This document shows positions 1-59,612 of a stretch of 64,000 bases of DNA, piece by piece; positions within the stretch are counted from its first letter, which is position 1, and each line of letters starts with the position of its first letter. The translations under genes and the position numbers were made by a program. The notes under the pieces are model-generated. The model was not told the origin of the DNA and did no database searches. It saw nothing but the letters and a program-made list of their open reading frames with translations. The stretch spans positions 1-64,000 of the forward strand of contig JBHGNT010000053.1 of assembly GCA_043228905.1 (NCBI GenBank), given 5' to 3'. Source of the stretch: Azolla caroliniana (Eukaryota; Plantae; Polypodiophyta).

Positions 1-788
1 AAAAATTTGATGGAACGAGGTCGCGTTTCCGAGGGTTCATCAACCAAGTTCGACTTATCATTCGGCTACAACCTCAACGTTATGGAGATGGTCTTCGACA
101 AGTCGGTCTTGTGGGCACCCTTCTCTCCGGTCCGGCCCAAGCTTGGTTTGCACCATTGGTAGAAACCTCATCACCTTTATTGGAGGACTTTCCCGCCTTC
201 CTCGCCGAGTTAGAGGCCACATTTGGAGAGACGGACCGACGACGTACAGCTCTTAACAAGATTTATGCACTCGAACAAGGTTCACGTGCAGCTTCGGTCT
301 ATGCTTCCGAATTTCGACAACTAGCATGCGACGTCAATTGGGATGATCAAGCTTTAGTTGATCACTTTCGGCGCGGTCTTCGAAGTAATGTCAAGAATCT
401 TCTCTTAAACTTTCCAGAGCCCACCTCGTTATCCCAAGCGATTTCACAAGCAGTCCATTGTGACAATCGTCTTTTCGAATTTCGCCAAGAAGAGCGCCGG
501 ACTTGGGTTCCACCTCATTCACTTCCACGCCACGCCCCGGTCATACAACCCCAAGCATACTCACACTCGCCTACTTCGGCAGATGCTCCTGTCCCCATGG
601 AAATTGATCAAGCCCGATTTCGGCCATTGACTGATGCTGAACGACAATTTCGGCGGGCTAATGGCTTGTGCATGTATTGTGGCGCCTCCGGTCATGTCGT
701 TCGCCATTGTCCTAGGAGTACTCGCCCACAATTCCATCGAGCTAACGGACCCCAACATCCGGAAAACGACATCGTTCGGTTGCAGTAG
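1..788 (+). CDS. gag: Gag of A1 (5'-truncated by window edge), capsid + CCHC zinc knuckle
   Basis: Near-identical to 5065-6081; PMEID motif and CMYCGASGHVVRHC knuckle; stop TAG 786-788. Confidence 0.93.
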   Translation, partial: KFDGTRSRFRGFINQVRLIIRLQPQRYGDGLRQVGLVGTLLSGPAQAWFAPLVETSSPLLEDFPAFLAELEATFGETDRRRTALNKIYALEQGSRAASVYASEFRQLACDVNWDDQALVDHFRRGLRSNVKNLLLNFPEPTSLSQAISQAVHCDNRLFEFRQEERRTWVPPHSLPRHAPVIQPQAYSHSPTSADAPVPMEIDQARFRPLTDAERQFRRANGLCMYCGASGHVVRHCPRSTRPQFHRANGPQHPENDIVRLQ

Positions 789-793
789 GAGCC

Positions 794-3700
794 ATGCAAC
801 TGGACATCTCCCGTCGCCCACATTCTCTTGGTTCCATTGCCGGACCATCAGGCAATTTCACATTGGAGGTATGGCTTTCGTTTAACTCTAGTTCCATTCA
901 GTCTGTTGCTTTACTTGATTCTGGGGCATCTTCTTGCTTCATCGACGTCGCGTTTGCCCAAGCACATGGCGTACCTGTCGTTGGCCTCTCAAAACCCATT
1001 CCAGTTGAAGCCATTGACGGGTGCGTCCTCTCGTCAGGTGCAATTACTCAAGCTACAATCCCATTAGGGCTTCGGGTGGGCTCACACCAAGAGGAGCTCA
1101 CCTTTTACCTCATCGCATCTCCTCGACATCCGATCGTCTTAGGACTAACGTGGTTGGAGGCGCACAATCCAATAGTAGATTGGTGCAACCGCTCGATCAC
1201 ATTTAGCAAGCCAAGATGCTCGTGCAAAAGTATGAAGGTAAATTCAGTTTCCTATCCTTCGGAGACGGTCGACTCCGAATTGACTACCCCATCATTCGTC
1301 CAGGATGGGTTTGTTTGTGGCGCCATTTCTAACACACTCCATGTTATTCCCGAAAAATACCAACACTTCTCCGACGTATTTGAAAAATGTAATGCTGATC
1401 GGTTGCCTGAACATCGGCTCTACGACTGTCCGATTGATCTTCAAGAAGGTGCGTGTCCACCCTTTGGTCCTCTATATGCGTTGTCTGCACCAGAGTTGAA
1501 GGCCCTTCGTGTGTATCTTGATGAGAACCTCGCGAAAGGCTTTATTCAACCTTCTAAGTCACCAGCCGGGGCCCCCATTTTATTTGTGAAGAAGAAGGAC
1601 GGCTCTCTACGCTTATGCGTCGACTACCGAGGTCTCAACAAACTCACTGTGCGCAACCGCTATCCGCTACCTCTGATCCCCGAACTCCTTGATCGGCTCC
1701 GAGTTGCGCGTGTCTTCTCCAAAGTTGATCTGCGTGGCGCGTACAATCTAGTACGCATCAAGCCGGGGGATGAATGGAAAACCGCATTTCGAACACGGTA
1801 TGGGCATTTCGAATACAAGGTAATGCCTTTTGGTCTTACTAACGCTCCCGCAGTTTTTCAACATATGATGAACGATATTTTCCGGGAATATCTTGATCTT
1901 TTTGTTGTCATTTACCTCGATGATATTCTCATTTTCTCGCCAAACATGGAGGAGCACACTCGCCAAGTCCAATTAGTTCTGGCCAAACTTCGCGAGCATG
2001 GCCTTTATGCCAAAGGCGAGAAATGCGAGTTCGACCGTACCTCGATCGAATTTCTGGGCTACATCATCTCGCCCACTGGCATCACCATGGATATGAAGAA
2101 GGTCTCTGTCATTCAGGCGTGGGCGACTCCAAGGCGACTTAAAGATGTGCAATCCTTCCTCGGCTTCGCAAATTTTTACCGTCGCTTCATCAAGGGGTTT
2201 TCCACCCTAGCACAACCTCTTATCGCTCTCACCCATAAGGGCACTCCATTTTTATGGACCTCAGAGGCACAAAATGCGTTCGACTCACTCAAACACGCAT
2301 TCATCACTGCCCCGGTGCTGCTACATGCCGACCCCACAAAACCCTTCCAAGTCGAAACCGATGCCTCTGACTTTGCCATTGGCGCCATCTTATCCCAAGC
2401 AGACGACAACAACCTAATGCACCCAGTGGCTTACTATTCCCGAAAATTTACGGCATCCGAAATCAATTATCCCATTTACGACAAGGAGCTTGCTGCTATC
2501 ATTGCTGCCTTTGAAGAATGGCGACCCTACTTGGCCGGCGCACAACATCGTGTCCAGGTAGTGACTGATCATAAAAATTTAGTTTATTTTTCCACCACTC
2601 GTACTTTGAATCGAAGGCAGGCCCGTTGGTCAACATTTCTCGCTGACTACGATTTTGAGATTGTATTTCGACCTGGTGGCCAACATGGGAAGGCTGATGC
2701 CCTTTCTCGCCGAGCTGACCTTGCACTCCGCCCTGGGGATGCTGCTTATGCTCAACAATCTAGACGTTTGTTGAAACCCGACCAATTGCATATGTTTGCC
2801 ACTTGTATGTTGCAGGATGATTCTTTACTCCAACAAATCACTGATGCATCCAAGACCGATGCGTTCGCCAACGAGATTCGAGATAGTCTGCAAAACCCCT
2901 CCAAGGCGACCAAAAGGAAGGATCTTGACACCTTCACCATACAAGAGGGTTTGTTGTTCCGAGATCATCTCTTATACGTCCCAGAGGGCCCATGTCGCAC
3001 CCGGGTGTTGCGGGAATGCCACGATGACCCACTTGCAGGTCATTTCGGGGTCGCGAAAACCCTCGAGCTAATCTCTCGGGGGTATTGGTGGCCACAACCA
3101 TGGAAGCTGGTCAAAGAATACATAAAGAGTTGTGAGGTTTGTGCTCGCTCCAAAGCCATTCATCATCGGCCATACGGCTTACTACAGCCGCTTCCATGTC
3201 CTCGTCGTCCTTGGGCCTCTATCTCTATGGACCTGATAACTGATCTACCCTTGGTCAATAGTTATGACTCGGTGTTGGTCGTTGTCGATCGGTTTACGAA
3301 GATGGCTCACTTCACTCCATGCTCCAAAACCATTTCCGGAGAAGGAATGGTGCATCTCCTACTCAACAATGTAGTACGCTTGCATGGACTCCCCGATGAT
3401 GTCATCTCGGATCGCGGACCCCAGTTTGTCTCTCACTTCTGGCAGCGCTTGCTACAAACTTTAGGCATCTCTGTCAAGTTGTCCTCCGCTTATCACCCCC
3501 AAACTGACGGGCAAACGGAGCCTGTCAACCAAATCCTTGAGCAGTATCTTCGGTGCTCGGTTAGTTACCAACAAGATGATTGGGTCAACTTACTTTCGCT
3601 CGCGGAATTCGCCTACAATAATTCTCTCCATGCATCGACTGGCGTCACTCCCTTCTTTGCCAACTATGGTTTACATCCTCGCTTCAACATTTCCCTTCCT

Positions 3701-4342
3701 ACCACTTCCGTGAACCCTTCGGCGGAGGATCGTGCCCGCATTTTGGAAGAAGTACATCATGATTTATCCTTGGAGCTTAGTCTTGCTAATGAACGATACA
3801 AGAAGCAGGCTGATCGCCATCGATCTTCCACTCCACACTTTGTCGTTGGAGACATGGTCTGGTTGTTACGTCGACACATCTCTACTACTCGTCCATGTGC
3901 GAAACTTGATTACAAGAAGTTGGGACCATTCCGTATCATCGAGTGCATCAATCCCGTCGCCTTCCGGCTCGCCCTTCCATCCCACTTCCGGATTCACGAT
4001 GTTTTTCATGTCTCCCTCCTCGAACCCCATTATGCTTCACAACTCCCAGGACGTCAAGCCCCACCACCACCACCTGTGCAGTTGACGACAGGGGAGGAAT
4101 ACGAGGTCGACCAAATCCTTGACTCGCGTTGGCACCGTCGACACTTGCAATACCTCGTCCTATGGCGGGGTTACCCCATGTCTGAGGCCACATGGGAACC
4201 ATCGGCAAATTTACAAAATGCCCCAGAGGTCGTCCAAGATTTTCATCACCGATATCCCCACAAACCAGCGGCCGATTTGGGAAGGCGGCGTAAGAGGGGG
4301 GATAATGTCAAGATTCGAACTCTTGACACGACCATGTTATAA
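794..4342 (+). CDS. pol: Pol polyprotein of A1 (aspartic protease, RT, RNase H, integrase, chromodomain)
   Basis: LLDSGA protease, YLDD RT, ETDASD RNase H, HHCC + D,D35E integrase, GPF motif, chromodomain YEVDQIL..YLVLWRGY..ATWEP. Frame is open from 746 (-1 relative to gag) and runs into the 3' LTR. Confidence 0.95.
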   Translation: MQLDISRRPHSLGSIAGPSGNFTLEVWLSFNSSSIQSVALLDSGASSCFIDVAFAQAHGVPVVGLSKPIPVEAIDGCVLSSGAITQATIPLGLRVGSHQEELTFYLIASPRHPIVLGLTWLEAHNPIVDWCNRSITFSKPRCSCKSMKVNSVSYPSETVDSELTTPSFVQDGFVCGAISNTLHVIPEKYQHFSDVFEKCNADRLPEHRLYDCPIDLQEGACPPFGPLYALSAPELKALRVYLDENLAKGFIQPSKSPAGAPILFVKKKDGSLRLCVDYRGLNKLTVRNRYPLPLIPELLDRLRVARVFSKVDLRGAYNLVRIKPGDEWKTAFRTRYGHFEYKVMPFGLTNAPAVFQHMMNDIFREYLDLFVVIYLDDILIFSPNMEEHTRQVQLVLAKLREHGLYAKGEKCEFDRTSIEFLGYIISPTGITMDMKKVSVIQAWATPRRLKDVQSFLGFANFYRRFIKGFSTLAQPLIALTHKGTPFLWTSEAQNAFDSLKHAFITAPVLLHADPTKPFQVETDASDFAIGAILSQADDNNLMHPVAYYSRKFTASEINYPIYDKELAAIIAAFEEWRPYLAGAQHRVQVVTDHKNLVYFSTTRTLNRRQARWSTFLADYDFEIVFRPGGQHGKADALSRRADLALRPGDAAYAQQSRRLLKPDQLHMFATCMLQDDSLLQQITDASKTDAFANEIRDSLQNPSKATKRKDLDTFTIQEGLLFRDHLLYVPEGPCRTRVLRECHDDPLAGHFGVAKTLELISRGYWWPQPWKLVKEYIKSCEVCARSKAIHHRPYGLLQPLPCPRRPWASISMDLITDLPLVNSYDSVLVVVDRFTKMAHFTPCSKTISGEGMVHLLLNNVVRLHGLPDDVISDRGPQFVSHFWQRLLQTLGISVKLSSAYHPQTDGQTEPVNQILEQYLRCSVSYQQDDWVNLLSLAEFAYNNSLHASTGVTPFFANYGLHPRFNISLPTTSVNPSAEDRARILEEVHHDLSLELSLANERYKKQADRHRSSTPHFVVGDMVWLLRRHISTTRPCAKLDYKKLGPFRIIECINPVAFRLALPSHFRIHDVFHVSLLEPHYASQLPGRQAPPPPPVQLTTGEEYEVDQILDSRWHRRHLQYLVLWRGYPMSEATWEPSANLQNAPEVVQDFHHRYPHKPAADLGRRRKRGDNVKIRTLDTTML

Positions 4343-4658
4343 TCTACTATTATGAGTTAACCAAGATATCTAGTACTAGTTATGTATGTAATTGGTCCTT
4401 ATTATTTTGCTAGCATCATGTGCATAGTTGCTCCTTTGTAGTATTTACACTTGGCACATGCATGCATACCTACATGCTCTATTGTAGATTCACATGCGTG
4501 CAACAAGTGTGCATGCCATGTAGTATAAATAGAGGAGTTCACCTTGAAGGAATTCAAGGTGAACAACACCAGTTATGGAGTCTTTCCTTTAGTACTATCT
4601 TCTTTCTTGTCCATTTGGTTATCTTCTTGGTTGTCTCTTGAGTTTATGATCCGTGACA
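4306..4658 (+). repeat. 3' LTR of A1 (353 bp)
   Basis: TGTCA...TGACA termini, preceded by PPT+AA; TATAAATA at 4524. Differs from the two A2 LTRs at 5 positions I could see. Confidence 0.95.
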
Positions 4659-4662
4659 GTAA

Positions 4663-5015
4663 TGTCAAGATTCGAACTCTTGACACGACCATGTTATAAT
4701 CTACTATTATGAGTTAACCAAGATATCTAGTACTAGTTATGTATGTAATTGTTCCTTATTATTTTGCTAGCATCATGTGCATAGTTGCTCCCTTGTAGTA
4801 TTTACACTTGGCACATGCATGCATACCTACATGCTCTATTGTAGATTCACATGCGTGCAACAAGTATGCATGCCATGTAGTATAAATAGAGGAGTTCACC
4901 TTGAAGGAATTCAAGGTGAACAACACCAGTTATGGAGTCTTTCCTTTAGTACTATATTCTTTCTTGTCCATTTGGTTATCTTCTTCGTTGTCTCTTGAGT
5001 TTATGATCCGTGACA
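4663..5015 (+). repeat. 5' LTR of A2 (353 bp)
   Basis: TGTCA...TGACA; TATAAATA at 4881. Confidence 0.95.
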
Positions 5016-5028
5016 GTTTGTTCACCTT
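4881..5028 (+). promoter_or_regulatory. LTR promoter (TATA), predicted transcript 5' end AAGGTGAACAA (4913-4923) and complementary self-priming PBS TTGTTCACCTT (5018-5028)
   Basis: Exact 11-nt complementarity. The 11-mer starts 32 nt after the TATA box start. There is no TGG tRNA-type PBS after the LTR. Confidence 0.8.
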
Positions 5029-5064
5029 CCATCCTCATAGCTCTCCCTCTCATAAGCCATAGCT

Positions 5065-6081
5065 ATGTCCGACTCAACTAGTGAGTTAGGCCAAATAATG
5101 GTAGCCTTACGACAACTACAGCTTGAAAATGAAGCTCTTCGAAATTCTTTACAAGAACTTCAAGTCGGTACCTCCCTATCCTCACAACCCCCGAACCCTA
5201 GTCTCCCACAACAACCTAGCCTAGAGCCCGATCTTCTACCAACATCTAGCCTAGCTTCATCACAGTTTCTTGAGCCTAAGGTTAGCCTCCCAGAAAAATT
5301 TGATGGAACGAGGTCGCGTTTCCGAGGGTTCATCAACCAAGTTCGACTTATCATTCGGCTACAACCTCAACGTTATGGAGATGGTCTTCGACAAGTCGGC
5401 CTTGTGGGCACCCTTCTCTCCGGTCCGGCCCAAGCTTGGTTTGCACCATTGGTAGAAACCTCATCACCTTTATTGGAGGACTTTCCCGCCTTCCTCGCCG
5501 AGTTAGAGGCCACATTTGGAGAGACGGACCGACGACGTACAGCTCTTAACAAGATTTATGCACTCGAACAAGGTTCACGTGCAGCTTCGGTCTATGCTTC
5601 CGAATTTCGACAACTAGCATGCGACGTCAATTGGGATGATCAAGCTTTAGCTGATCACTTTCGGCGCGGTCTTCGAAGCAATGTCAAGAATCTTCTCTTA
5701 AACTTTCCGGAGCCCACCTCGTTATCCCAAGCGATTTCACAAGCAGTCCATTGTGACAATCGTCTTTTCGAATTTCGCCAAGAAGAGCGCCGGACTTGGT
5801 TCCCACCTCATTCACTTCCACGCCACGCCCCGGTCATACAACCCCAAGCATCCTCACACTCGCCTACTTCGGCAGATGCTCCTGTCCCCATGGAAATTGA
5901 TCAAGCCCGATTTCGACCATTGACTGATGCTGAACGACAATTTCGGCGGGCTAATGGCTTGTGCATGTATTGTGGCGCCTCCGGTCATGTCGTTCGCCAT
6001 TGTCCTAGGAGTACTCGCCCACAATTCCATAGAGCTAACGGACCCCAACATCCGGAAAACGACATCGTTCGGTTGCAGTAG
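5065..6081 (+). CDS. gag: Gag of A2 (338 aa; coiled coil, capsid, CCHC knuckle; Sushi/PEG10-like)
   Basis: LPEKFDGTRSRFRGFINQ capsid motif, PMEID, CMYCGASGHVVRHC. Confidence 0.95.
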   Translation: MSDSTSELGQIMVALRQLQLENEALRNSLQELQVGTSLSSQPPNPSLPQQPSLEPDLLPTSSLASSQFLEPKVSLPEKFDGTRSRFRGFINQVRLIIRLQPQRYGDGLRQVGLVGTLLSGPAQAWFAPLVETSSPLLEDFPAFLAELEATFGETDRRRTALNKIYALEQGSRAASVYASEFRQLACDVNWDDQALADHFRRGLRSNVKNLLLNFPEPTSLSQAISQAVHCDNRLFEFRQEERRTWFPPHSLPRHAPVIQPQASSHSPTSADAPVPMEIDQARFRPLTDAERQFRRANGLCMYCGASGHVVRHCPRSTRPQFHRANGPQHPENDIVRLQ

Positions 6082-6086
6082 GAGCC

Positions 6087-9000
6087 ATGCAACTGGACAT
6101 CTCCCGTCGCCCACATTCTCTTGGTTCCATTGCCGGACCATCAGGCAATTTCACATTGGAGGTATGGCTTTCGTTTAACTCTAGTTCCATTCAGTCTGTT
6201 GCTTTACTTGATTCTGGGGCATCTTCTTGCTTCATCGACGTCGCGTTTGCCCAAGCACATGGCGTACCTGTCGTTGGCCTCTCAAAACCCATTCCAGTTG
6301 AAGCCATCGACGGGTGCGTCCTCTCGTCAGGTGCAATTACTCAAGCTACAATCCCATTAGGGCTTCGGGTGGGCTCACACCAAGAGGAGCTCACTTTTTA
6401 CCTCATCGCATCTCCTCGACATCCGATCGTCTTAGGACTAACGTGGTTGGAGGCGCACAATCCAATAGTGGATTGGTGCAACCGCTTGATCACATTTAGC
6501 AAGCCAAGATGCTCGTGCAAAAGTATGAAGGTAAATTCAGTTTCCTATCCTTCGGAGACGGTCGACTCCGAATTGACTACCCCATCATCCGTCCAGGATG
6601 GGTTTGTTTGTGGCACCATTTCTAACACACTCCATGTTATTCCTGAAAAATACCAACACTTCTCCGACGTATTTGAAAAATGTAATGCTGATCGGTTGCC
6701 TGAACACCGGCTCTACGACTGTCCGATTGATCTTCAAGAAGGTGCGTGTCCACCCTTTGGTCCTCTATATGCGTTGTCTGCACCAGAGTTGAAGGCCCTT
6801 CGTGTGTATCTTGATGAGAACCTCGAGAAAGGCTTTATTCAACCTTCTAAGTCACCAGCCGGGGCCCCCATTTTATTTGTGAAGAAGAAGGACGGCTCTC
6901 TACGCTTATGCGTAGACTACCGAGGTCTCAACAAACTCACTGTGCGCAACCGCTATCCGCTACCTCTGATCCCCGAACTCCTTGATCGGCTCCGAGTTGC
7001 GCGTGTCTTCTCCAAAGTTGATCTGCGTGGCGCGTACAATCTAGTACGCATCAAGCCGGGGGATGAATGGAAAACCGCATTTCGAACACGGTATGGGCAT
7101 TTCGAATACAAGGTAATGCCTTTTGGTCTTACTAACGCTCCCGCAGTTTTTCAACATATGATGAACGATATTTTCCGAGAATATCTTGATCTTTTTGTTG
7201 TCATTTACCTCGATGATATTCTCATTTTCTCGCCAAACATGGAGGAGCACACTCGCCAAGTCCGATTAGTTCTGGCCAAACTTCGCGAGCATGGCCTCTA
7301 TGCCAAAAGCGAGAAATGCGAGTTCGACCGTACCTCGATCGAATTTCTGGGCTACATCATCTCGCCCACTGGCATCACCATGGATATGAAGAAGGTCTCT
7401 GTCATTCAGGCGTGGGCGACTCCAAGGCGACTTAAAGATGTGCAATCCTTCCTCGGCTTCGCGAATTTTTACCGTCGCTTCATCAAGGGGTTTTCCACCC
7501 TAGCACAACCTCTTATCGCTCTCACCCATAAAGGCACTCCATTTTTATGGACCTCGGAGGCACAAAATGCGTTCGACTCACTCAAACACGCATTCATCAC
7601 TGCCCCGGTGCTGCTACATGCCGACCCCACAAAACCCTTCCAAGTCGAAACCGATGCCTCTGACTTTGCCATTGGCGCCATCTTATCCCAAGCAGACGAC
7701 AACAACCTAATGCACCCAGTGGCTTACTATTCCCAAAAATTTACGGCATCTGAAATCAATTATCCCATTTACGACAAGGAGCTTGCTGCTATCATTGCTG
7801 CCTTTGAAGAATGGCGACCCTACTTGGCCGGCGCACAACATCGTGTCCAGGTAGTGACTGATCATAAAAATTTAGTTTATTTTTCCACCACTCGTACTTT
7901 GAATCGAAGGCAGGGCCGTTGGTCTACATTTCTCGCCGACTACGATTTTGAGATCGTATTTCGACCTGGAGGCCAACATGGGAAGGCTGATGCCCTTTCT
8001 CGCCGAGCTGACCTTGCACTCCGCCCTGGGGATGCTGCTTATGCTCAACAATCTAGACGTTTGTTGAAACCCGACCAATTGCATCTGTTTGCCACTTGTA
8101 TGTTGCAGGATGATTCTTTACTCCAACAAATCACTGATGCATCCAAGACCGATGCGTTCGCCAACGAGATTCGAGATAGTTTGCAAAACCCCTCCAAGGC
8201 GACCAAAAGGAAGGATCTTGACACCTTCACCATACAAGAGGGTTTGTTGTTCCGAGATCATCTCTTATACGTCCCAGAGGGCCCATGTCGCACCCGGGTG
8301 TTGCGGGAATGCCACGATGACCCACTTGCAGGTCATTTCGGGGTCGCGAAAACCCTCGAGCTAATCTCTCGGGGGTATTGGTGGCCACAACCATGGAAGC
8401 TGGTCAAAGAATACATAAAGAGTTGTGAGGTTTGTGCTCGCTCCAAAGCCATTCATCATCGGCCATACGGCTTACTACAGCCGCTTCCATGTCCTCGTCG
8501 TCCTTGGGCCTCTATCTCTATGGACCTGATAACTGATCTACCCTTGGTCAATAGCTATGACTCGGTGTTGGTCGTTGTCGATCGGTTTACGAAGATGGCT
8601 CACTTCACTCCATGCTCCAAAACCATTTCCGGAGAAGGAATGGTGCATCTCCTACTCAACAATGTAGTACGCTTGCATGGACTCCCCGATGATGTCATCT
8701 CGGATCGCGGACCCCAGTTTGTCTCTCACTTCTGGCAGCGCCTGCTACAAACTTTAGGCATCTCTGTCAAGTTGTCCTCCGCTTATCACCCCCAAACTGA
8801 CGGGCAAACGGAGCGTGTCAACCAAATCCTTGAGCAGTATCTTCGGTGCTCGGTTAGTTACCAACAAGATGATTGGGTCAACTTACTTTCGCTCGCGGAA
8901 TTCGCCTACAATAATTCACTCCATGCATCGACTGGCGTCACTCCCTTCTTTGCCAACTACGGTTTACATCCTCGCTTCAACATTTCCCTTCCTACCACTT

Positions 9001-9638
9001 CCGTGAACCCTTCGGCGGAGGATCGTGCCCGCATTTTGGAAGAAGTACATCATGATTTATCCTTGGAGCTTAGTCTTGCTAATGAACGATACAAGAAGCA
9101 GGCTGATCGCCATCGATCTTCCACTCCACACTTTGTCGTTGGAGACATGGTTTGGTTGTTACGTCGACACATCTCTACTACTCGTCCATGTGCGAAACTT
9201 GATTACAAGAAGTTGGGACCATTCCGTATCATCGAGTGCATCAATCCCGTCGCCTTCCGGCTCGCCCTTCCATCCCACTTTCGGATTCACGATGTTTTTC
9301 ATGTCTCCCTCCTCGAACCCCATTATGCTTCACAACTCCCAGGACGTCAAGCCCCACCACCACCACCTGTGCAATTGACGACAGGGGAGGAATACGAGGT
9401 CGACCAAATCCTTGACTCGCGTTGGCACCGTCGACACTTGCAATACCTCGTCCTATGGAGGGGTTACCCCATGTCTGAGGCCACATGGGAACCATCGGAA
9501 AATTTACAAAATGCCCCAGAGGTCGTCCAAGATTTTCATCACCGATATCCCCACAAACCAGCGGCCGATTTGGGAAGGCGGCGGCGTAAGAGGGGGGATA
9601 ATGTCAAGATTCGAACTCTTGACACGACCATGTTATAA
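6087..9638 (+). CDS. pol: Pol polyprotein of A2 (PR-RT-RH-IN-chromodomain)
   Basis: Uninterrupted 1183-aa ORF with all catalytic motifs; integrase QTDGQTERVNQ intact. Confidence 0.96.
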   Translation: MQLDISRRPHSLGSIAGPSGNFTLEVWLSFNSSSIQSVALLDSGASSCFIDVAFAQAHGVPVVGLSKPIPVEAIDGCVLSSGAITQATIPLGLRVGSHQEELTFYLIASPRHPIVLGLTWLEAHNPIVDWCNRLITFSKPRCSCKSMKVNSVSYPSETVDSELTTPSSVQDGFVCGTISNTLHVIPEKYQHFSDVFEKCNADRLPEHRLYDCPIDLQEGACPPFGPLYALSAPELKALRVYLDENLEKGFIQPSKSPAGAPILFVKKKDGSLRLCVDYRGLNKLTVRNRYPLPLIPELLDRLRVARVFSKVDLRGAYNLVRIKPGDEWKTAFRTRYGHFEYKVMPFGLTNAPAVFQHMMNDIFREYLDLFVVIYLDDILIFSPNMEEHTRQVRLVLAKLREHGLYAKSEKCEFDRTSIEFLGYIISPTGITMDMKKVSVIQAWATPRRLKDVQSFLGFANFYRRFIKGFSTLAQPLIALTHKGTPFLWTSEAQNAFDSLKHAFITAPVLLHADPTKPFQVETDASDFAIGAILSQADDNNLMHPVAYYSQKFTASEINYPIYDKELAAIIAAFEEWRPYLAGAQHRVQVVTDHKNLVYFSTTRTLNRRQGRWSTFLADYDFEIVFRPGGQHGKADALSRRADLALRPGDAAYAQQSRRLLKPDQLHLFATCMLQDDSLLQQITDASKTDAFANEIRDSLQNPSKATKRKDLDTFTIQEGLLFRDHLLYVPEGPCRTRVLRECHDDPLAGHFGVAKTLELISRGYWWPQPWKLVKEYIKSCEVCARSKAIHHRPYGLLQPLPCPRRPWASISMDLITDLPLVNSYDSVLVVVDRFTKMAHFTPCSKTISGEGMVHLLLNNVVRLHGLPDDVISDRGPQFVSHFWQRLLQTLGISVKLSSAYHPQTDGQTERVNQILEQYLRCSVSYQQDDWVNLLSLAEFAYNNSLHASTGVTPFFANYGLHPRFNISLPTTSVNPSAEDRARILEEVHHDLSLELSLANERYKKQADRHRSSTPHFVVGDMVWLLRRHISTTRPCAKLDYKKLGPFRIIECINPVAFRLALPSHFRIHDVFHVSLLEPHYASQLPGRQAPPPPPVQLTTGEEYEVDQILDSRWHRRHLQYLVLWRGYPMSEATWEPSENLQNAPEVVQDFHHRYPHKPAADLGRRRRKRGDNVKIRTLDTTML

Positions 9639-9954
9639 TCTACTATTATGAGTTAACCAAGATATCTAGTACTAGTTATGTATGTAATTGTTCCTTATTA
9701 TTTTGCTAGCATCATGTGCATAGTTGCTCCCTTGTAGTATTTACACTTGGCACATGCATGCATACCTACATGCTCTATTGTAGATTCACATGCGTGCAAC
9801 AAGTATGCATGCCATGTAGTATAAATAGAGGAGTTCACCTTGAAGGAATTCAAGGTGAACAACACCAGTTATGGAGTCTTTCCTTTAGTACTATATTCTT
9901 TCTTGTCCATTTGGTTATCTTCTTCGTTGTCTCTTGAGTTTATGATCCGTGACA
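9602..9954 (+). repeat. 3' LTR of A2 (353 bp)
   Basis: TGTCA...TGACA, followed by CCTAT (candidate TSD half). Confidence 0.95.
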
Positions 9955-10322
9955 CCTATTAGGCCGACTCGAGATGCATCAGTGGGATATCAGGAAGGAT
10001 GCATCTGGATGACTAAGCGTACCTGATTAAGGAATCCCCAGAATTGCGATCGCGTTCCATCAAATTTCACAGGAAGTCCAATCTTGGGCTCTTTATGAAA
10101 TCCTTAGGGACTTGATCCTTGTTGTTGCAACGCTGCTTCGAGTTGTTGTACCTGTAACGCTAACTCCCCATGTTGTTGTTGCGTTTGTTGTTTTTCTAGA
10201 GCGATTTGTTGCAGATCCCCTATCAATTGTTGGTTTTCTTGTTCCAGGGCAACAAACTTTTCTTTTAGGCACTGTAGCTCGGAGAAAACGGATTGGTATT
10301 CTTGGGCGCTAACAGTAGCCAT
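9955..10322 (-). pseudogene. gag: gag fragment of element B with two nonsense codons
   Basis: Stops at 10104-10106 (TAA) and 9990-9992 (TGA), both compatible with C>T changes; truncated at the A2 LTR. Confidence 0.85.
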
Positions 10323-10392
10323 AGTATAGGGAAAAGGGTAGGAGGATGAGGGAGAGTGACAAGTAGGCTGGAGGAGAAAATTGGTTCAAACT

Positions 10393-10566
10393 GTCAGGAA
10401 TAGTACTAAAACAGAGATGGAATTAGTACTAAAGAAGAGTAGTACTATTAGTCAGGAATAGTACTAAAACAGAGATGGAATTAGTACTAAAGAAGAGTAG
10501 TACTATTAGTCAGGAATAGTACTAAAACAGAGATGGAATTAGTACTAAAGAAGAGTAGTACTATTA
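10393..10566. repeat. 3 x 58-bp perfect tandem repeat at the U5 end of LTR B
   Basis: Unit GTCAGGAATAGTACTAAAACAGAGATGGAATTAGTACTAAAGAAGAGTAGTACTATTA starts at 10393, 10451 and 10509. Confidence 0.95.
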
Positions 10567-10950
10567 GTACTAAGGGGGACGGGACTACGTAAGACTCCCG
10601 AGAGAGGAAGTGAGAAGAGGAGAGAGAGATATCGAGAATGAGAGAGAGAGAGAGATGATGACAACGGCTAATATATTATGTGAAAGATAAGTACAAAGCG
10701 GCGAAGAGGATTAAGACTGGTGTTGAACCAATTTGGTTCAAAACAATGCCTTGTGCCTCCTTTTATAGCGTTTCTAGGAATAAGCCTGAAGCTTCTAGAA
10801 TGTTCCAGAGAGATCTGGAATATACATCAATTTTCTATGATAAAACATAAATGAAAATAATATCCTACAAATTACAATTCATAGTCTAATGGTAGTAGCT
10901 CGACCCATGTAGCATAAGGTCATGGGTTCGAGTCTTGCCATATCATGACA

Positions 10951-13900
10951 GGTGCATCCGGATCTGATTGTACCCGCTAAATTCGTCTAGAAAGCTATAG
11001 ACCTCATGGCCGGCGACGGCATCCAACACTCCATCTGTGAACGGAAGTGGAAACGCATCCATTACCGTAGCCGCATTGAGTTTCCGGTAGTCCACACAAA
11101 TTCGAATTTTTCCGTTCTTCTTCGGTACGACTACGATCGGGTTCAACCATGTCGCTTTCTTTACCGGACGGATAAAGCCAACTCTTAGCAGTTTGTCGAT
11201 TTCCTCCTTGACTTTGGCGGCATAATTGGGATTCATCCGGTACCGTCTTTGTGCCACTGGTTTTGCATCCTTGCTCAAGTGAATCTGATGCTGGTATAAC
11301 TGAGGGTCGAGCCCTCGCATGTCTTCGTATGACCAGGCAAACACGTCACGAAATTCCGTGAGAAGTGTGATCATCGTGTTTTGTCTTCGGACTTCATCTC
11401 CTTGGCGATGTGCACCGGTTTTGCTTCGTCCGTGGTCCCTAGGTTCACCTCTTCAAGTTGAGACGCTTTTACGCGCTGTGAAACGGCCATTTCCCGTTCC
11501 AACGCTTCCTGCGCTTGTCGTAACTCTCGGATTGCATCCTTATCCGGTTCTGCTTCAGTCTCTTCCGGCTGCGGTAAGTATGGTGCTACTGCTTCGGTAA
11601 TGTCAATTTCGAAGAGGGGTACGATCTTCGGGTTTTCCTACAAGTACTGAGCTTCTTCTTCATCAGCTAACCCTTCTAGCATGTTGACGCACTCTGCATA
11701 CAACGGTGTACATTCCTTGCCAATGCTCGTCCTTGGCTGTGTTGGTACCCATACCTTGGCTTTTCCTCGCCGGAAGGTAATTATATTTTTCCTCCAATTC
11801 TGTTTGATATGTGCCATTTTCAACCACGCCCGCCCCAGCAATAGCGGGTATGCGCCTTGTGCCTGTAATTGTAGCACTACTGCCGAAATGTGAAATGTAT
11901 GACCGCCAACGGTGACTTCTAATTTTCGTATTAATCCTGTTGGCCGCACTAAGCTTGTATCGGCCATCCGTAACCAGAACGGACACGGCTCCCACTCGTG
12001 GATTCCCAAGGCATCACACGTCCGGAGGCTTATTACATTCACACCGGAGCCTCCGTCTATTACTGTGTCGGGGAGTTCTTTCCCTTTTACAATGGCAGTA
12101 ATTACCGGACTGTTGGTGTCCACCACCGTTGGTCCCTCCTCCGGATTCGAGAAGAGTACCGGTGCCAGTGATGATTCTCCTTCCGTCCTGGCTGTCTTCA
12201 ATCCTTCCGTGAATCTTGGCACGAGCTGTAGGAGTCTTCCTAGTGGCAGCGTAATCTGGCATTCTTGCAACGCCTGCCATGTCTCGTTCTCGGAGTGACT
12301 GCCGCCGGCAAGCCCTACGGTGTTCTCCTTTTGCCACTCTAAGTCTGTTACGTTTTGCTTGTTTGCTTTCTTCACCCATTCCGTCGCTTGCTTCCGGATG
12401 GTCTCCTGCGTCTCCCATTCCTTGGCCATGCCCTTCGACCTTGTGGTCACCTGCTGTAGATCTGCCACTTCAGGGACTACCATATTTACTGCCGGTCATT
12501 TGTCATAGCTCTTCACCGGGCATTGATTACTATAATGGCCTTCCTGTCGGCAGTAGTAGCAGTAGGTTTTCCGGGTATTGCTGGATTCGACATTGTTTGT
12601 TGTATCCGGGGCAGGTCCTGTGGTAAGCGCGGGGTTTTGGGCCGGTTGGCTGCTTGAAGCTCCTTGTTCCGGATCCCGTGGGTGGCCGCCTTTTTTGAAA
12701 TGTCGTTTTTTGTTATAGTTCTTCTTATTGCGGTACTCTTGACGAGGTTGGTCGTTATATCTGCCGTATTCCTCCCATTGCTGACGATACCCGGGGGAGT
12801 GCTCCCGGTCGTAATGTTCGTATCGTCTATTGTAATCCTGGTACCGATCATATCTATCGTACCGGTCGTAGTTATCACGCCGATCACCGTACCGAACATC
12901 ATTCTCCCGTCGATCGCCATACCAGACATCTTGTGCCGGTCGGTCGCGGTCCATTCGCCGCCAGCGTTCCTCTTCTTCATCCCGACTGCTATGTGGCTCT
13001 ATTTGTCGGACGGGCGATGCTTGCCGGTTCAATAGATTATACTCGCACCTATTCATCATATGGCCCTTGGATTGACAGATTACACATTGCGTCCTCATAG
13101 TGCATTCTAGTGTCGAGTGTCCGGAATTCAAGCAGGTTGTGCACTGTATTGCTTGCCGAAACCGGAGGTCTTCATCGGACAGTAACGCCCGTTGGAGTGC
13201 TCCCAGTGTGAGCTAGGAGCTTGTGTTTTCCATCTCTCACCCGGTCAATGACCTGGTCGATGGTACTTGCACAGAAGTCAATTACCGTGCAAACCGTGCG
13301 TAGGGGTTTCCGGAGCACATTTAGGAATATAGTCCGTAATTCCTCCTCCGGGGGTGCGCGGGCAAGCTGACTATGCATCCGTTGAAACCGGATGACAAAC
13401 TGGGGAATGCTCTCCCCTGCCTCCTGTCGGATGGTATAAAATAAGCCCACCATTACTATCTGGTCCACCTCCCTTTGGAAAAAATGCAAGAATTTAGCTT
13501 TAAAATCTGCGAAGGTGGTGATGGTAGACGGGTCATGCGTCCGGCGCCATCTTGCTGTCGGTCCCTCCAATGTGACGCCAAATTCCGCTATCTTAGAGCG
13601 TTCCTCTTCCTCCGGGGTCAATCGTTGGGACACATGGTTTGCTTCCCATGTCTGTTCAAAGGCGTGAACATGAGCTTCCGCGTCCGGATCATCTCTATAC
13701 TTGGAGTACTGGAACGGCATGTCGTCGTCCGGTACCGGTGCGCGGGTTGGTGGTGTTGGTGGTCGTTCCTGGTTTTTCTCCGGCGTCGGTGGTCTTTCCT
13801 GATTTGTCTCTGGCGTCGGTGGTCTTTCATCTTCTTTTGGTGACGGAGGCCTCTCCTCCTCGACTTCCGGTGTCGGAGGTCGCTCTTCCTCTGCTTCTGG

Positions 13901-14798
13901 TTCCGGAGGTTCCAGCCTTAGCATTTCCAATTCCTGTGTCGGTAAGGTGTCTGATCCTTCGTCCCCCGGTCCGCCCGGGGTGTCGTTGCTGCTACGGTAG
14001 TTCGTGTGCACGTTGTATCCCCCTTCGGAATCCGATTCATACGCTGAAAAGGCTTCTGCTTCGCCTTCTCTGCTTGCCAACGCCTGGAGAAGGGATTCGG
14101 TTTCCAGGAGGCTTATTAGGCTGCTGTCATCATCCGGGTGCGATGTTTGCTGTAACCGGAGGGACTCCTCCGCTACTCTCCAGATTACGTTGGAAAACGA
14201 GCGATCCGCTGTAATTTCTTGTGCCGCTTGCTGGAAAGCCTCACGTCTCCTTTGCCTTTCGGCAGTGCGTCGAGTTCGATCTATAACCAGGTCGTGCGTT
14301 GATCTAGTCATCCATTTGTGCCGTCGTTCATTGCAAAAACAGGAATCGTGGTCGCCAAAAACTGTGTTAACTCTTAGGGCCGGACAATGGCCTAACACAG
14401 GGTGTCTACGGAAGACACTTCACCAAAGGGGTGTTACGGCAAGAGGATTAGGCTCAACGATTAATCCGACTTAATTAGGCTACTTAGCAAGATCGTCCTT
14501 AATAATCACACGCGTAAGATATAACAATGAATGCAGAACGACAATTAACACATAGAGATAAAAACACTAAGCTTCATTAATTATCCGCTGCCCATTACAT
14601 TGTATCCGGGCCTTTAAATAGGTTTCCGGTTTTTAATACAAAACGGTGCCATCCGCACCTGTTCGGGATCGGTCTGGATCCGGAACGGCATACCGATTCC
14701 GGTCCGTCCGCCCACACTAATAGCTTACTTACAACCATTCCTAATAATTAAATAACTCCTTCGTTTCACACTCTGGACTCCTTTGCCGGCCGGTAACA
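10951..14798 (-). mobile_element. Degenerate non-chromovirus Ty3/Gypsy element C (5' LTR, gag, zinc knuckles, protease, RT N-terminus), cut by insertion of B
   Basis: LTR 14432-14798 (TGTTAC...GTAACA); gag from ATG 14311; three CCHC knuckles (about 12500-13145); protease VIDGGSG (11638-12483); RT PIVVVPKKNGKIRICVDYRKLN...FSGYNQI ending at 10951; several stops and frameshifts. Confidence 0.88.
14432..14798 (-). repeat. 5' LTR of element C (367 bp)
   Basis: 6-bp terminal inverted repeat TGTTAC/GTAACA, directly upstream of the gag leader. Confidence 0.75.
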
Positions 14799-15625
14799 CC
14801 GACTACTACCAATGGTCACGAGGCCTCAATGTCGGAGCAATGTTCTCAATACCACCTTGTCCTCTCTTTAAATGACCGGTAAGTGAGCTGGTTGGATCCT
14901 TTAACACCCAAGCTCCCAAAGGCAAAAGTTGATGCTCCCCCAAAATGCCAAAATACCAAAGTTGAAATGAAGAGCTCTTCCTTATCCCCAAGCCAACTCA
15001 AAACGCCCCAAAAGTAGAACCTAAATGAGTTCCCTTGCACTTTTTGTATGAAGAGAGAGGTGCCTCATTTTGCATTAAATGCAAACTACCCCACTTTGTA
15101 TTAAAAAAAAAGAAAAATAGAGAATAATTCTTTAATTCGCACTGATGATGATTCAAATTCTATGCCCTTTGTAGTCTACCTTCAAAATTTCCCCTTTCGT
15201 CATATAAGCCATCCTCGTGACTCGATGCTTGGTCGTTGTCGTGTTCTTCTTCTCCAATGACATTGAGGATTTGCTTGCCTCTCTGCCGCTCCTTGAAGAT
15301 CTTAACTTGTTTGCCTGGCCAGTACTACTAGCCTTGTTTCGTCGAGTTCGGTGAGGTGGTAGGTGGCATTGTCATTTGTGCATGTCACAATGTATAGTCT
15401 AAACCATGAGATTGCAAACTTCCTCATTGAATTGTATCGATTGTCGAGGTTATTGTTGTACACGATCACGTAGTCAAATCAATGTGTCTTGTCGAATTTG
15501 CCTTTGTTTTATACTTGTGTTGTCTTTAATTGTCCCAATGCCAACTCCAAGTCTTATAGCCTTCTCTCGAGTTGTCTTATCCTTGTTGCCATAAGCGCTA
15601 TGTCATATGTTTGAAAGTCTCTCAT

Positions 15626-46660: not shown

Positions 46661-47490
46661 CGTGGCGGATCGGGGAGAGCTGGAAGCACAGGAAGCTGAG
46701 GAGTTGTTCGACCGACTAGGGGTAAAACTCTCCCTCACTACGGCTTACAATCCGGAGGCGAACGGGAAAGTGGAACGTGGTCACGGGTCTATCGTGAAGG
46801 CATTAGTACGTGCTTGTGAAGGGCAGGTCGGGAATTGGCCGCGGCTCCTCCCTTACGCACTATGGGCGGACCGAACTACGCACAGTTCGACTACGGGGTT
46901 CATGCCGACAAAACTGATGTACGGGCAGAAGCCTATCATGTCGGTAGAGCGGACGATCTCTTCGTGGGCGGCGGTAGACTGGAAGGACGAGATAAGCCGG
47001 GAGGAGCTGTTGGCGGCGCCAATTCGACAGCTCGAGCGGAGGCTAGAGGACGTACAGAGGGTGAAGGAGAAGCTGCGTGCGGCGAGGGAACGAAACAAGT
47101 TCCGGTTCAACCAGACGCACCGGCTACGACCCAAGAAGATCGAGGAAGGCGATTGGGTGCTGGTTTACGACAGCAGCCTCGATAACCAGCATAAGGCGAA
47201 GCGTAAATTTGCAAGGAGGTGGTTCGGGCCTTATACGGTGACGAGCGCGAACGGCAACGACACGTATCACCTCCCAGAACTCGACGGAACACGCTTAGCG
47301 GTGCTGGTGGCCGGGAAGCGGATCAAGGCGTTCAAGAAGCGGAATGAAGATGAGCCGGAGCGAGGAGAGCGACGACGATCGGTTGGGGCCCGACGAAGAA
47401 TCGGACAACGACGGATGACGAGCCGGCTTTCTCCCGTATCTACCTGCCTCTGGAGCAGACCGGTGGATGCGCGGTTTGATGGGGGTGGAT
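46661..47490 (+). mobile_element. Ty3/Gypsy integrase C-terminal fragment with PPT-like tract
   Basis: DRGE...TTAYNPEANGKVERGH, WPRLLPYALWADRTT, RWFGPY; GATGGGGGTGGA near 47478-47489. Confidence 0.85.
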
Positions 47491-48719
47491 TTCGGCACCG
47501 CCTTGACTCCCCTTGCTCGTGGAAGTCCCGGAAATGCTATCGGCACGCTCATTGTGCCTTCGTTCCTGCTCTTGCCGGCCGCTTCCATTGCGTGCCGACC
47601 CACCTCTTCCCCCACGCCCACGGGGTCTATCAGCCTCCATGTACAGCATCCGACTGTCCGATTGAGTGGTCCGAGACTCACTCACGTGGTTTTCTTCGAC
47701 CATCATCATCGATTGCAAGTCGAAGAAGGACGGTGGTTTCTCCCATGTACAGATCGTTGTCCGCATCGGCCTGTACCTTTTCGCTAGACCACCAAGGCAG
47801 ATTTGTACCATCTCGTGTTCATCCACTGTCACGTTGATAGACCCGAGTGCGTCACAAATCTCTTTTACTTTGGTGGTATAGTCCGTGACCGACATGTCTC
47901 TCTGTCGGATGTTGTTCAGCTCTTGCCGGAGCTGCAACTTACGGGTTGTGGTACTTGCGGCGAAAACCTTACGCAGATTTTCCCAGGCTTCCTTCGGCGT
48001 CTTTGCATCCCTAATGTAGCCGAGCATCTGGTCATGCACAAAGGACGCGAGGCAGTACAGTACTCGGCTCGCTCCTTGCTCCCATACCCGAAAGTCCTTG
48101 TGTGCAGGTTCTGGCGCTACTTCATTCGTTCCTTCCACAAAACTCCAATACCCATGCCCCAGTAGGTACTGATGCATTTTGTATGACCAGGACGCGTAGT
48201 TGGTCCGGTCGAGTTTCTCTGTGGGAATCGAACTTGCCATAACTCTGTCCATGTCTTTTTCTGTCTACTGTTCTTACGACCTGTTAGGGTTTGCTCTTCG
48301 AAAGTAAATGTCGATTGCAGAGGTTCTCAACCCTCTCGATCTAATACCATGTAGAAGATCACTTGCGGAAGCGATAGAAAGAACAGAGAAAATAGAAGAT
48401 ACATAGAGTGAGAGAGAGTACACGGGAGAGACAGAGAGAGCAGAACGTAAAACTATATTCAAAATTATATCAACACTCTGTACATACAACACGCTCATCA
48501 ACGCTATTTATACAAGTCCTCATGGGACTGACAGAAGTACCGTGTACTTCAATGCTCACACGAGCATCTAACACTCACTCCAAGACAATAACTACCTAGT
48601 AATACCGTAGATTACTAGGCTTCCGGTTACTGATGGATCCGGTTAACCGGCTCCCATGCTTATCGGCTTTTTGCTCACCGGCATACGAATCCGGCTCCGG
48701 TTGAGCTTGCCGCTCAACA
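47491..48719 (-). mobile_element. Ty1/Copia 5' fragment: LTR 48350-48719, tRNA-iMet-like PBS and gag (UBN2-type)
   Basis: LTR TGTTG...CTACA on minus strand; PBS TGGTATTAGATC (48349-48338); gag EKLDRTNYASWSYKM..LLGHGYW..TPKEAWENL. Confidence 0.88.
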
Positions 48720-49174: not shown

Positions 49175-50027
49175 CATAAGTGGGGTTTCTTTCAAATTTA
49201 TGCAATAGTTTGAGCTTATACCGTTTACACACCTACTTTGTCTTATAAATGGCTACAGAAAAGTAATGAATCTTAAAAAATCCTCTAGGTTTCTTACGAA
49301 GCCAAATCAGCATCCTTGGCTAGGCCTAAAGAGTTTTTCCATCTGGCTGTAACTCCTTTATTTCACATCCATGTCATTCATTGCTCTTTTTAGTAATTTC
49401 CCAACTAAGTTAAACTAAATCAAACATACCATACCATACCAAATTAAACCAAATCAAACATACTATAGCATACCAAACCAAATTAAACTAAATCAAACAT
49501 ACCATACCATAGCAAATTAAACCAAATCAAACATACTATAGCATACCATACCAAATTAAACTAAATCAAACATACCATACCATACCATAGCAAATTAAAC
49601 CAAATCAAACATACTATAGCATACCATACAACTAAATCAAACATACCATACCATAGCAAATTAAACCAAATCAAACATACTATAGCATACCATACAACTA
49701 AATCAAACATACCATACCATACCAACTTAAACCAAATCAAACATACTATAGCATACCAAACCAAATTAAACTAAATCAAACATACCATACCATAAGTGGG
49801 GTTTCTTTCAAATTTATGCAATAGTTTGAGCTTATACCGTTTACACACCTACTTTGTCTTATAAATGGCTACAGAAAAGTAATGAATCTTAAAAAATCCT
49901 CTAGGTTTCTTACGAAGCCAAATCAGCATCCTTGGCTAGGCCTAAAGAGTTTTTCCATCTGGCTGTAACTCCTTTATTTCACATCCATGTCATTCATTGC
50001 TCTTTTTAGTAATTTCCCGACTAAGTT
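49175..50027 (+). repeat. 237-bp direct repeats (49175-49411, 49791-50027) flanking a 379-bp satellite insert (49412-49790)
   Basis: The two copies differ at one visible base (CCCAACT vs CCCGACT); the insert is the same satellite as 56960-57793. Confidence 0.93.
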
Positions 50028-50455
50028 GAATCTGCTTTAACCTCTTTATGTAAATGCCATTTCTCCTTATCATCATTCATTTGCTCCACCTACAAATAAA
50101 TTTGATATCATTCAGGAACACACGCTCAAATGCAATGAACAAGATGATATAAATCCACGGGGGATCATAGAACTCTTCATATGAGAAATAAAAACAGGCA
50201 ACAAAAAACACATCTTTACTAGTTCAGACAATGGTAGCACATACCCAAGCACTTAACGGTTTCTTACGATGCAATGTATCATACACACACGTGTATGATG
50301 GAACAACCATGTAACTTGATCTTAGTAGAACTTTCTAGGGTTTCCAAATTTCTACCCAAGTGCAAGTGACACATCACTAACAAGCATATACATAAGGTAG
50401 CAATGCACATTCTGCTAATGCATTAAAACGACATTGTTCTGTGAAAATGGAGTAC

Positions 50456-54673
<4,218 letters not shown>

Positions 54674-58790: not shown

Positions 58791-59322
58791 GAAAGAGATG
58801 GAGATCCCATTAGATAATCGACTGTGCTTGCACCCCCTTTTGGGTTCCAACATGTCAAAGCATCTTATCCAGGCCATTGTGACAAGCCATTATATATCAC
58901 AAGTCCATGCGCGCTTCCCAAGGCTAGAAAGTGTTTTCCATATTCAATTATAGCACTCATATCTTGAACTTTTCTCTTTAGACCAACCTCTTCTGCCATA
59001 GCTTCTCCATAGCCAGCCTCGTCGGTGTTAAATATAGTTGTTTGTTCATCCTTGGTTCGTGCATTAAAATCTCCTAATAGTATTATATCCCCCATAGTAG
59101 CAAATCTTATGATATCATCATATAGTGTTCGATATGGTGATTCACCTAGAGGTGCAAACCTTGAATAGGCAGGTGGAAAGTAGCAAATTGCAATATATAG
59201 CTCCCTAAGATCCCCTCTTTTTATGCATATCCACATGTAGCGTGCATCCACATCCTTATGTACAACATGCACTCTACCATGGAGCTCCTCTTTGTATAGC
59301 ATAGCCACTCCTCCCGAACCTC
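58791..59322 (-). mobile_element. LINE apurinic-endonuclease (APE) domain fragment
   Basis: RGSGGVAMLYK..ICYFPP..IILLGDFNART..TC..STVDY. Confidence 0.8.
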
Positions 59323-59612
59323 TAGTGCTTCCTCATTTCTTCCTTTAGTGCTATTTCAATATCTTCTCTAATAAGGTTGATCTCTTGCGCAATCAAATGG
59401 CGTAAAAGATCATGTTTCCCATTTTCGACATCGAATGGAATGTCGGATGGGGCCCGCATTCTAGGTTCCTTATGCGCCCTTCTGACGCTATTCAGGTCCC
59501 GTCCTTTTCGTCTATGATATCTTCTTGTGGTCTTCAATAGATTTGGACCCTCGTCATGCGTGTTAAGATCCATCTTTTCAGTGTCTGTCCCTTCGGACTC
59601 TATGGTGTCAGA

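What the first reader, a model, noticed from the sequence alone, without database searches (positions are those of the whole stretch)
4650..4670. Tandem retrotransposon junction keeps both unprocessed cDNA ends (CA-GT-AA-TG): an integrated heterodimer of two different cDNAs
Seen: A1's 3' LTR ends at 4658 and A2's 5' LTR starts at 4663, separated by GTAA. GT is exactly the dinucleotide between LTR and PBS (5016-5017), and AA is exactly the dinucleotide between PPT and LTR (4304-4305, 9600-9601). LTR 4306-4658 differs at 5 sites from LTRs 4663 and 9602, which agree with each other. A2 has no TSD of its own. Known: linear LTR cDNAs carry 2-nt terminal extensions that integrase removes, and such junctions are the signature of 2-LTR circles. 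Inference: both LTRs of one circle should be identical, so this is better explained by end-to-end ligation of two distinct linear cDNAs that then integrated as one unit.
Basis: partly seen in the sequence, partly recalled or inferred. Interest (0 to 1): 0.8.

Follow-up and report, generated by a model that had tools for sequence, protein, structure and literature searches.

The report
Two retrotransposon copies fused end-to-end
Two slightly different copies of a plant jumping gene sit head to tail, joined by four bases that match what lies just outside each copy's terminal repeats, so two free DNA copies with likely untrimmed ends were likely fused and inserted together: a rare accident of a known process, not a new system.

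Summary
Observation confirmed: LTR-GTAA-LTR at 4659-4662; LTR1 differs at 5 sites from LTR2 = LTR3. A1 and A2 come from two source lineages: 30 of 44 changed codons are synonymous, pN/pS about 0.15. The elements are predicted self-priming, Tcn1/Tf1-like chromoviruses, and the 2-nt gap before the primer site is conserved in relatives, so GT is the predicted right cDNA end. The left end is ambiguous by one base (GT|AA or G|TAA). A2's outer end is trimmed to CA against B gag. Best reading (0.65): two different linear cDNAs were joined at untrimmed inner ends and inserted by integrase at the outer ends; the order of the two steps cannot be read. Not verified: the upstream end, the full target-site duplication, and read support (no genome held; no listed contig bridged the junction, which is uninformative). 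LTR-LTR tandems are known in Drosophila and retroviral vectors, and the scan noted a similar dimer in another genome (e1-7153424, unchecked). A new variant of a known kind.

The parts
3..788 (+). A1 gag, cut by the window start
   Evidence: open frame; aligns to A2 gag
746..4342 (+). A1 pol frame: protease, RT, RNase H, integrase, chromodomain; no stop
4292..4305 (+). A1 polypurine tract, then T and AA
4306..4658 (+). LTR1, the 3' LTR of A1 (5 differences from LTR2 and LTR3)
4659..4662 (+). GTAA junction: predicted untrimmed right end of A1 cDNA plus left end of A2 cDNA; parses GT|AA or G|TAA
4663..5015 (+). LTR2, the 5' LTR of A2; TATA box at 4881, predicted self-primer at 4913-4923
5016..5028 (+). 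GT spacer (5016-5017) and 11-nt primer-binding site (5018-5028) complementary to 4913-4923
5056..6081 (+). A2 gag frame
6039..9638 (+). A2 pol frame, no stop, with chromodomain
9588..9601 (+). A2 polypurine tract, then T and AA
9602..9954 (+). LTR3, the 3' LTR of A2, identical to LTR2; ends at CA with no GT
9955..9959 (+). CCTAT: the first five flanking bases, predicted right copy of the target-site duplication
   Evidence: B gag reads in frame up to the LTR
9955..10322 (-). gag of element B (two in-frame stops), interrupted by the A array
10379..10950 (-). element B 5' LTR (10392-10950), GT spacer and predicted self-primer site

Best explanation
A1 and A2 are two intact-frame copies of one chromovirus family, about 1% apart and joined head to tail by GTAA, and they likely entered the chromosome together as two different linear cDNAs whose untrimmed inner ends were likely joined by host end-joining while integrase likely inserted the outer ends into the gag gene of element B. 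Shown: the junction, the LTR pattern, the two lineages, the CA end against B gag. Inferred: GT is the right cDNA end because the predicted self-primer site starts two bases after the LTR; AA (or TAA, sharing the T) is the left end; the joining enzyme; one shared insertion. Open: whether joining came first (dimer, then integration) or last (integrase pairs one end of each cDNA, and the two loose inner ends are then repaired); both give this sequence. It is most likely a one-off by-product with no function of its own.
For: Junction and LTR pattern. If three identical LTRs had mutated in place, all 5 changes falling on LTR1 has P = 0.004. A1 and A2 differ by 45 substitutions and one 3-nt indel in 4308 aligned columns; 30 of 44 changed codons are synonymous against 24-31% expected, P below 1e-6 at every transition weighting tried, so the differences arose in replicating lineages before insertion. 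At LTR position 90 the T shared by LTR2 and LTR3 is absent from the listed contigs of X1, X2 and X7 and nearly so in X8: a rare allele tying both LTRs to one template. A free search (spacer 0-4 nt, any bases) found a self-complementary primer site 2 nt after the LTR in 28 of 31 hits in the 64 fetched loci (26 loci; GT 23, GA 5), with primer and site changing together across families and lying 32-35 nt after a TATA box. TAA precedes the LTR start in 35 of 47 purine-tract hits. Both GT and AA are absent from normally integrated ends, so both inner ends were likely free when joined; the outer right end is CA joined to B gag. Two-LTR junctions are made by NHEJ (PMC3148978, PMC12786077, passages).
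Against: The left outer end and the second CCTAT lie outside the window and no genome is held, so a single insertion is not shown. An edge-of-LTR crossover of a 2-LTR circle gives the same sequence. The left end is uncertain: in Tf1 the CAA before the LTR is counted as part of the polypurine primer and most cDNA ends carry extra bases (PMC11042837, passages), so a clean 2+2 blunt join is only one reading. One locus only; no second junction in the 64 fetched loci, which are short-read contigs and likely collapse repeats. The test for a crossover is blind if both parents are equally diverged.
Confidence: 0.65

Rival explanations
1. A 2-LTR circle of one copy recombined by a single crossover into a resident, normally integrated copy. 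The observed LTR pattern needs either a crossover in the first 89 or last 29 bases of an LTR, or an internal crossover followed by conversion of LTR2 by LTR3.
For: 2-LTR circles are a documented product in plants and flies (PMC9324142; bioRxiv 2022.09.25.509424). The family is very abundant in the laid runs (summed contig depths in the thousands), so targets are many. cDNA recombination into resident copies is shown for Tf1 (PMC11042837).
Against: An internal crossover predicts LTR1 = LTR2, which is false. The permitted edge windows are 118 of 5998 positions, 2%. The Tf1 recombination tandems described share one LTR. No clustering of lineage-specific alleles along the element (runs P = 0.76, breakpoint P = 0.19; a weak test).
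Confidence: 0.17
2. Assembly or library artefact: a read from an extrachromosomal 2-LTR circle, or a chimeric read, was built into the contig.
For: Read support is untested: no genome is held and only contigs, no raw reads, were offered.
Against: A circle read would carry identical LTRs on both sides of the junction; here they differ at 5 sites, and LTR2 matches LTR3 five kb away, including a rare allele. A false join would have to be made within 89 identical bases. Both pol frames are intact and the differences are mostly synonymous, unlike sequencing error.
Confidence: 0.09
3. A shared-LTR array of three copies lost the internal region of its middle copy by a deletion that used the one shared T as microhomology, leaving LTR-GTAA-LTR.
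For: Shared-LTR tandems are common in plants (PMC11899658). The T fits both sides.
Against: Both breakpoints must fall on the predicted cDNA ends: 2 of about 10 million breakpoint pairs (1.9e-7). It also needs a prior array of mixed lineages.
Confidence: 0.03
4. Double insertion: A2 integrated next to a resident A1, and GTAA is leftover target DNA.
For: Proposed for some LTR tandems in Drosophila (PMC5932611, section 17).
Against: The target duplicate should lie in the junction; the five bases left of A2 are AGTAA and those to its right are CCTAT.
Confidence: 0.03

Closest known systems
2-LTR circle junctions of retroviruses and LTR retrotransposons (PMC3148978, PMC12786077, PMC9324142, PMC7197481; passages read)
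   Same: U5 end joined to U3 end with the bases that integrase would remove still present; attributed to NHEJ.
   Different: Here the junction sits in a chromosomal contig between two different copies, and its two LTRs are not identical.
Head-to-tail LTR-LTR tandems in Drosophila populations (McGurk and Barbash 2018, PMC5932611; passages, section 17, Table S2 and its legend read)
   Same: Two LTRs adjacent, not shared; seen in 16 of 26 listed LTR families.
   Different: Read-pair evidence only; the text I saw ascribes some to double insertion with the target site in the junction. Here there is no target duplicate and the junction matches cDNA ends.
Shared-LTR tandems: rice and other plants (PMC11899658, parts 1-4 of 6 read), Tf1/Tf2 integrase-independent tandems (PMC11042837, passages)
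   Same: Head-to-tail full-length copies at one locus.
   Different: Those share one internal LTR and arise by recombination or annealing; this one keeps two LTRs and a 4-base joint.
Head-to-tail concatemers of integrase-defective lentiviral vectors (PMC3177226, passages)
   Same: Chromosomal tandems of reverse-transcribed genomes with one or two LTRs between units.
   Different: Engineered, no active integrase, at an induced break, identical units; here natural, two lineages, and the visible outer end looks integrase-made.
Tcn1 / Tf1-Sushi self-priming chromoviruses (PMC6317226, PMC2864245; passages)
   Same: Gag and pol frames with a chromodomain, no tRNA site, primer site complementary to the LTR.
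   Different: A 2-nt spacer precedes the primer site; the PMC2864245 passages read report Tcn1 from mosses, Selaginella and basidiomycetes. No tree with reference elements was built here.

Membership tests
LTR-LTR (2-LTR-type) end-joined junction | U5 end abuts U3 end in direct orientation | tested here: met
LTR-LTR (2-LTR-type) end-joined junction | Joint consists of the untrimmed terminal bases of the cDNA | tested here: met
   GT follows the LTR before the primer site and (T)AA precedes it after the purine tract, in the window and in relatives; cDNA ends themselves are predicted, and the parse is ambiguous by one base
Single 2-LTR circle | Both junction LTRs come from one cDNA and are identical | tested here: not met
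   5 differences in 353 bases
Integrase-made single insertion of a dimer | Outer ends trimmed to TG...CA | tested here: inconclusive
   right end met; left end outside the window
Integrase-made single insertion of a dimer | One target-site duplication around the whole array | not testable with these tools
   no genome held
Shared-LTR tandem (IDENTAM type, Tf1/Tf2 type) | One LTR between the two internal regions | tested here: not met
   two LTRs and GTAA
Double-insertion dimer | Target-site duplicate inside the junction | tested here: not met
   AGTAA versus CCTAT
Chromovirus (Ty3/gypsy) | PR-RT-RH-IN order with C-terminal chromodomain | tested here: met
Tcn1 / Tf1-Sushi clade | Primer site of 10 nt or more, 0-5 nt after the 5' LTR, complementary to the LTR (criterion of PMC6317226) | tested here: met
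   11 nt, 2 nt after the LTR; control 27 of 2155 ACA sites in window 17001-64000
Tcn1 / Tf1-Sushi clade | Chromodomain with aromatic cage | tested here: inconclusive
   Y, W and Y are present in the chromodomain by eye; cage positions are recalled, no alignment to references
Tcn1 / Tf1-Sushi clade | RT-RH-IN phylogeny groups with Tcn1 | not tested
   no reference sequences fetched

The most novel reading that the evidence does not exclude
Integrase in a living plant can pair the ends of two different retrotransposon cDNAs and insert both at once, the host sealing the two loose inner ends; such heterodimers recur across the genome as a second route to tandem retrotransposons, and their joints are a fossil record of the exact cDNA ends of lineages never grown in the laboratory (here a 2-base extension on a self-primed chromovirus).
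Probability: 0.25. Interest if true: 0.65.

Novelty: new variant of a known kind. Interest (0 to 1): 0.4.

Why it matters
End-joined retroelement DNA is usually described as a dead end (PMC3148978). A chromosomal dimer with a cDNA-end joint would show that such ends can be inherited, gives a route to tandem LTR elements other than LTR recombination, and records where reverse transcription starts and stops in a self-priming plant lineage. As one locus it is a curiosity; it matters only if a genome-wide count shows that it recurs, and that count is easy with the assembly.

Tried and rejected
Own genome: none held, so the upstream test and a genome-wide junction count were not possible. Public runs: 20 listed, all as contigs; X1, X2, X7, X8 were laid on 4484-4838 and X1, X2, X3, X7 on 4618-4703; no listed piece bridged the junction (32 of 498 pieces shown, the longest 45 bases on the stretch); contigs drop rare variants, so this is no evidence either way. 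A 24-base junction pattern found 0 matches in metagenome contigs. Viral contigs held no relative. A junction scan of the 64 fetched loci found only the window's own junction. Polarising the five LTR differences gave different answers with distant relatives (3 A1-derived, 2 unclear) and same-species contigs (informative only at position 90), so only position 90 is used. The crossover test was negative but weak. Double insertion, LTR-sharing recombination, in-place mutation of a homodimer and an internal crossover with one circle were rejected. Reading all four bases as purine-tract remnant fits two relatives whose tract ends in GTAA (L032, L061) but not A2, whose tract ends in ATAA. Two Tf1 cDNA-end papers (PMC1287563, PMC1563812) were not held. 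Literature: searches listed no report of a natural chromosomal heterodimer with a cDNA-end joint; the library lacks most older subscription papers, and I recall, without a call, 1980s work on oligomeric MLV proviruses and work on Ty1 multimeric arrays.

Full report
Observation. The sequence is as described. Three 353-bp LTRs lie at 4306-4658, 4663-5015 and 9602-9954. GTAA separates the first two. LTR1 differs from the others at five positions, and LTR2 equals LTR3. A2 has AGTAA on its left and CCTAT on its right, so no duplication of its own. One detail was missed: the base before the AA is T, so the joint reads GT|AA or G|TAA. A random deletion would give this exact joint with probability 1.9e-7.

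The elements. A1 and A2 carry open gag and pol frames with protease, RT, RNase H, integrase and a chromodomain. The 11 bases at 5018-5028 are complementary to 4913-4923 in the LTR, 32 bases after a TATA box, and the predicted transcript folds with that pairing. This meets the self-priming criterion used by Neumann et al., who predict self-priming for the Tcn1 clade and relate it to Tf1/Sushi (PMC6317226, passages); I built no tree, so the clade name is a likeness. Among 64 related loci from metagenome contigs (the best 80 of 278 hits were kept), a search that allowed any spacer of 0-4 bases found the primer site two bases after the LTR in 28 of 31 hits, in 26 loci; the other three are a self-matching palindrome. 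Primer and site change together between families. The spacer is GT in 23 and GA in 5. So GT is the predicted right end of the cDNA. On the other side TAA precedes the LTR in 35 of 47 purine-tract hits, which does not decide between AA and TAA. In Tf1 the CAA before the LTR is counted as part of the primer tract and cDNA ends are ragged (PMC11042837, passages). The joint is therefore made of cDNA-end sequence on both sides, but a blunt 2+2 ligation is not proven.

Two source copies. A1 and A2 differ by 45 substitutions and one 3-base indel over 4308 columns. Of 44 changed codons 30 are synonymous; pN/pS is 0.20 in gag and 0.14 in pol. The excess holds under every transition bias tried (P below 1e-6). 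Mutation after insertion would not do this; the differences arose in replicating lineages. Three identical LTRs mutating in place would put all five changes on LTR1 with P = 0.004. At LTR position 90, LTR2 and LTR3 share a T that the listed contigs of three runs never show and a fourth barely shows. A2 with both its LTRs is thus likely one cDNA, and LTR1 belongs to another.

The outer end. LTR3 ends at CA with no GT and is joined to B gag, which reads in frame up to that point. That is the end integrase leaves (2-base trimming: PMC3148978, passage). Element B is a related predicted self-primer on the minus strand, itself inserted in the RT of a third gypsy element.

Mechanism. A normally integrated copy has neither GT after nor AA before its outer LTRs, so both inner ends were likely free cDNA ends when joined. 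I commit to this reading (0.65): two different linear cDNAs, inner ends joined by host end-joining, outer ends inserted by integrase. The order is open. Concerted integration assays use short separate donor ends (PMC11054761, figure legend), so pairing across molecules is chemically possible; an in vivo case was not found (no paper listed).

Rivals. A 2-LTR circle crossing over into a resident copy predicts LTR1 = LTR2 if the crossover is internal, which is false. It fits only if the crossover falls in the first 89 or last 29 bases of an LTR, 118 of 5998 positions, or if LTR2 was later converted. An artefact (0.09) is unlikely for the allele reasons above but untested: no genome is held, and no listed contig bridged the joint in five runs, which shows nothing because contigs of so abundant a family break into short pieces. 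Deletion of a middle copy (0.03) and double insertion (0.03) fit poorly.

Known cases. Two-LTR junctions of circles are standard (PMC3148978, PMC12786077, PMC9324142, PMC7197481, bioRxiv 2022.09.25.509424; passages). Plant tandems so far described share one LTR (PMC11899658, parts 1-4 of 6), as do most Tf1/Tf2 tandems. LTR-LTR tandems were detected in 16 of 26 listed Drosophila families and are stated not to arise by unequal exchange (PMC5932611, Table S2 and legend); the text ascribes some LTR tandems to repeat insertion. Eight supplementary files of that paper could not be read and might show joint sequences. Vector concatemers with one or two LTRs between units are known (PMC3177226, passages). 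Nine searches listed no natural chromosomal heterodimer with a cDNA-end joint, but older journals are poorly covered. The scan's own notes hold one similar dimer in another genome (e1-7153424), which I did not check, and call this genome a fern (unchecked).

Verdict. A real feature in the sequence, likely a fused pair of free cDNAs. It is a new variant of a known kind: each step is known chemistry, the product is rarely described. Interest 0.4 as a single locus; higher if a genome-wide count shows recurrence.

Noticed in passing
window 4913-4923 and 5018-5028; B at 10723-10733 and 10379-10389; 26 of loci L001-L064: A whole group of plant chromovirus families has an 11-12-nt predicted self-primer that changes together with its binding site, always two bases (GT or GA) after the LTR and 32-35 bases after the TATA box.
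   Followed up: yes
window 9955-14800: Three-level nesting: the A array sits in gag of element B (two in-frame stops), and B sits in the RT of a third, decayed gypsy element C.
   Followed up: partly
window 10396-10572: B's LTR contains three head-to-tail copies of a 58-bp unit in its U5 part (family D13).
   Followed up: no
window 4306-4342 and 9602-9638: The pol frame runs through the purine tract and about 12 codons into the 3' LTR.
   Followed up: no
L007 531-10678: A relative (84% protein identity in the best segment) is assembled as a shared-LTR tandem with 99.4% identical units; it may be a short-read assembly loop.
   Followed up: partly
window 49175-50030, 52778-54420, 56706-57800: AT-rich tandem arrays with periods of 10-39 bases; the 49 kb and 57 kb arrays are related.
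   Followed up: no
window 47440-48264 (-) and 58865-59332 (-): A copia-type gag fragment and a weak endonuclease match below the Pfam cut-off, possibly a LINE remnant.
   Followed up: no
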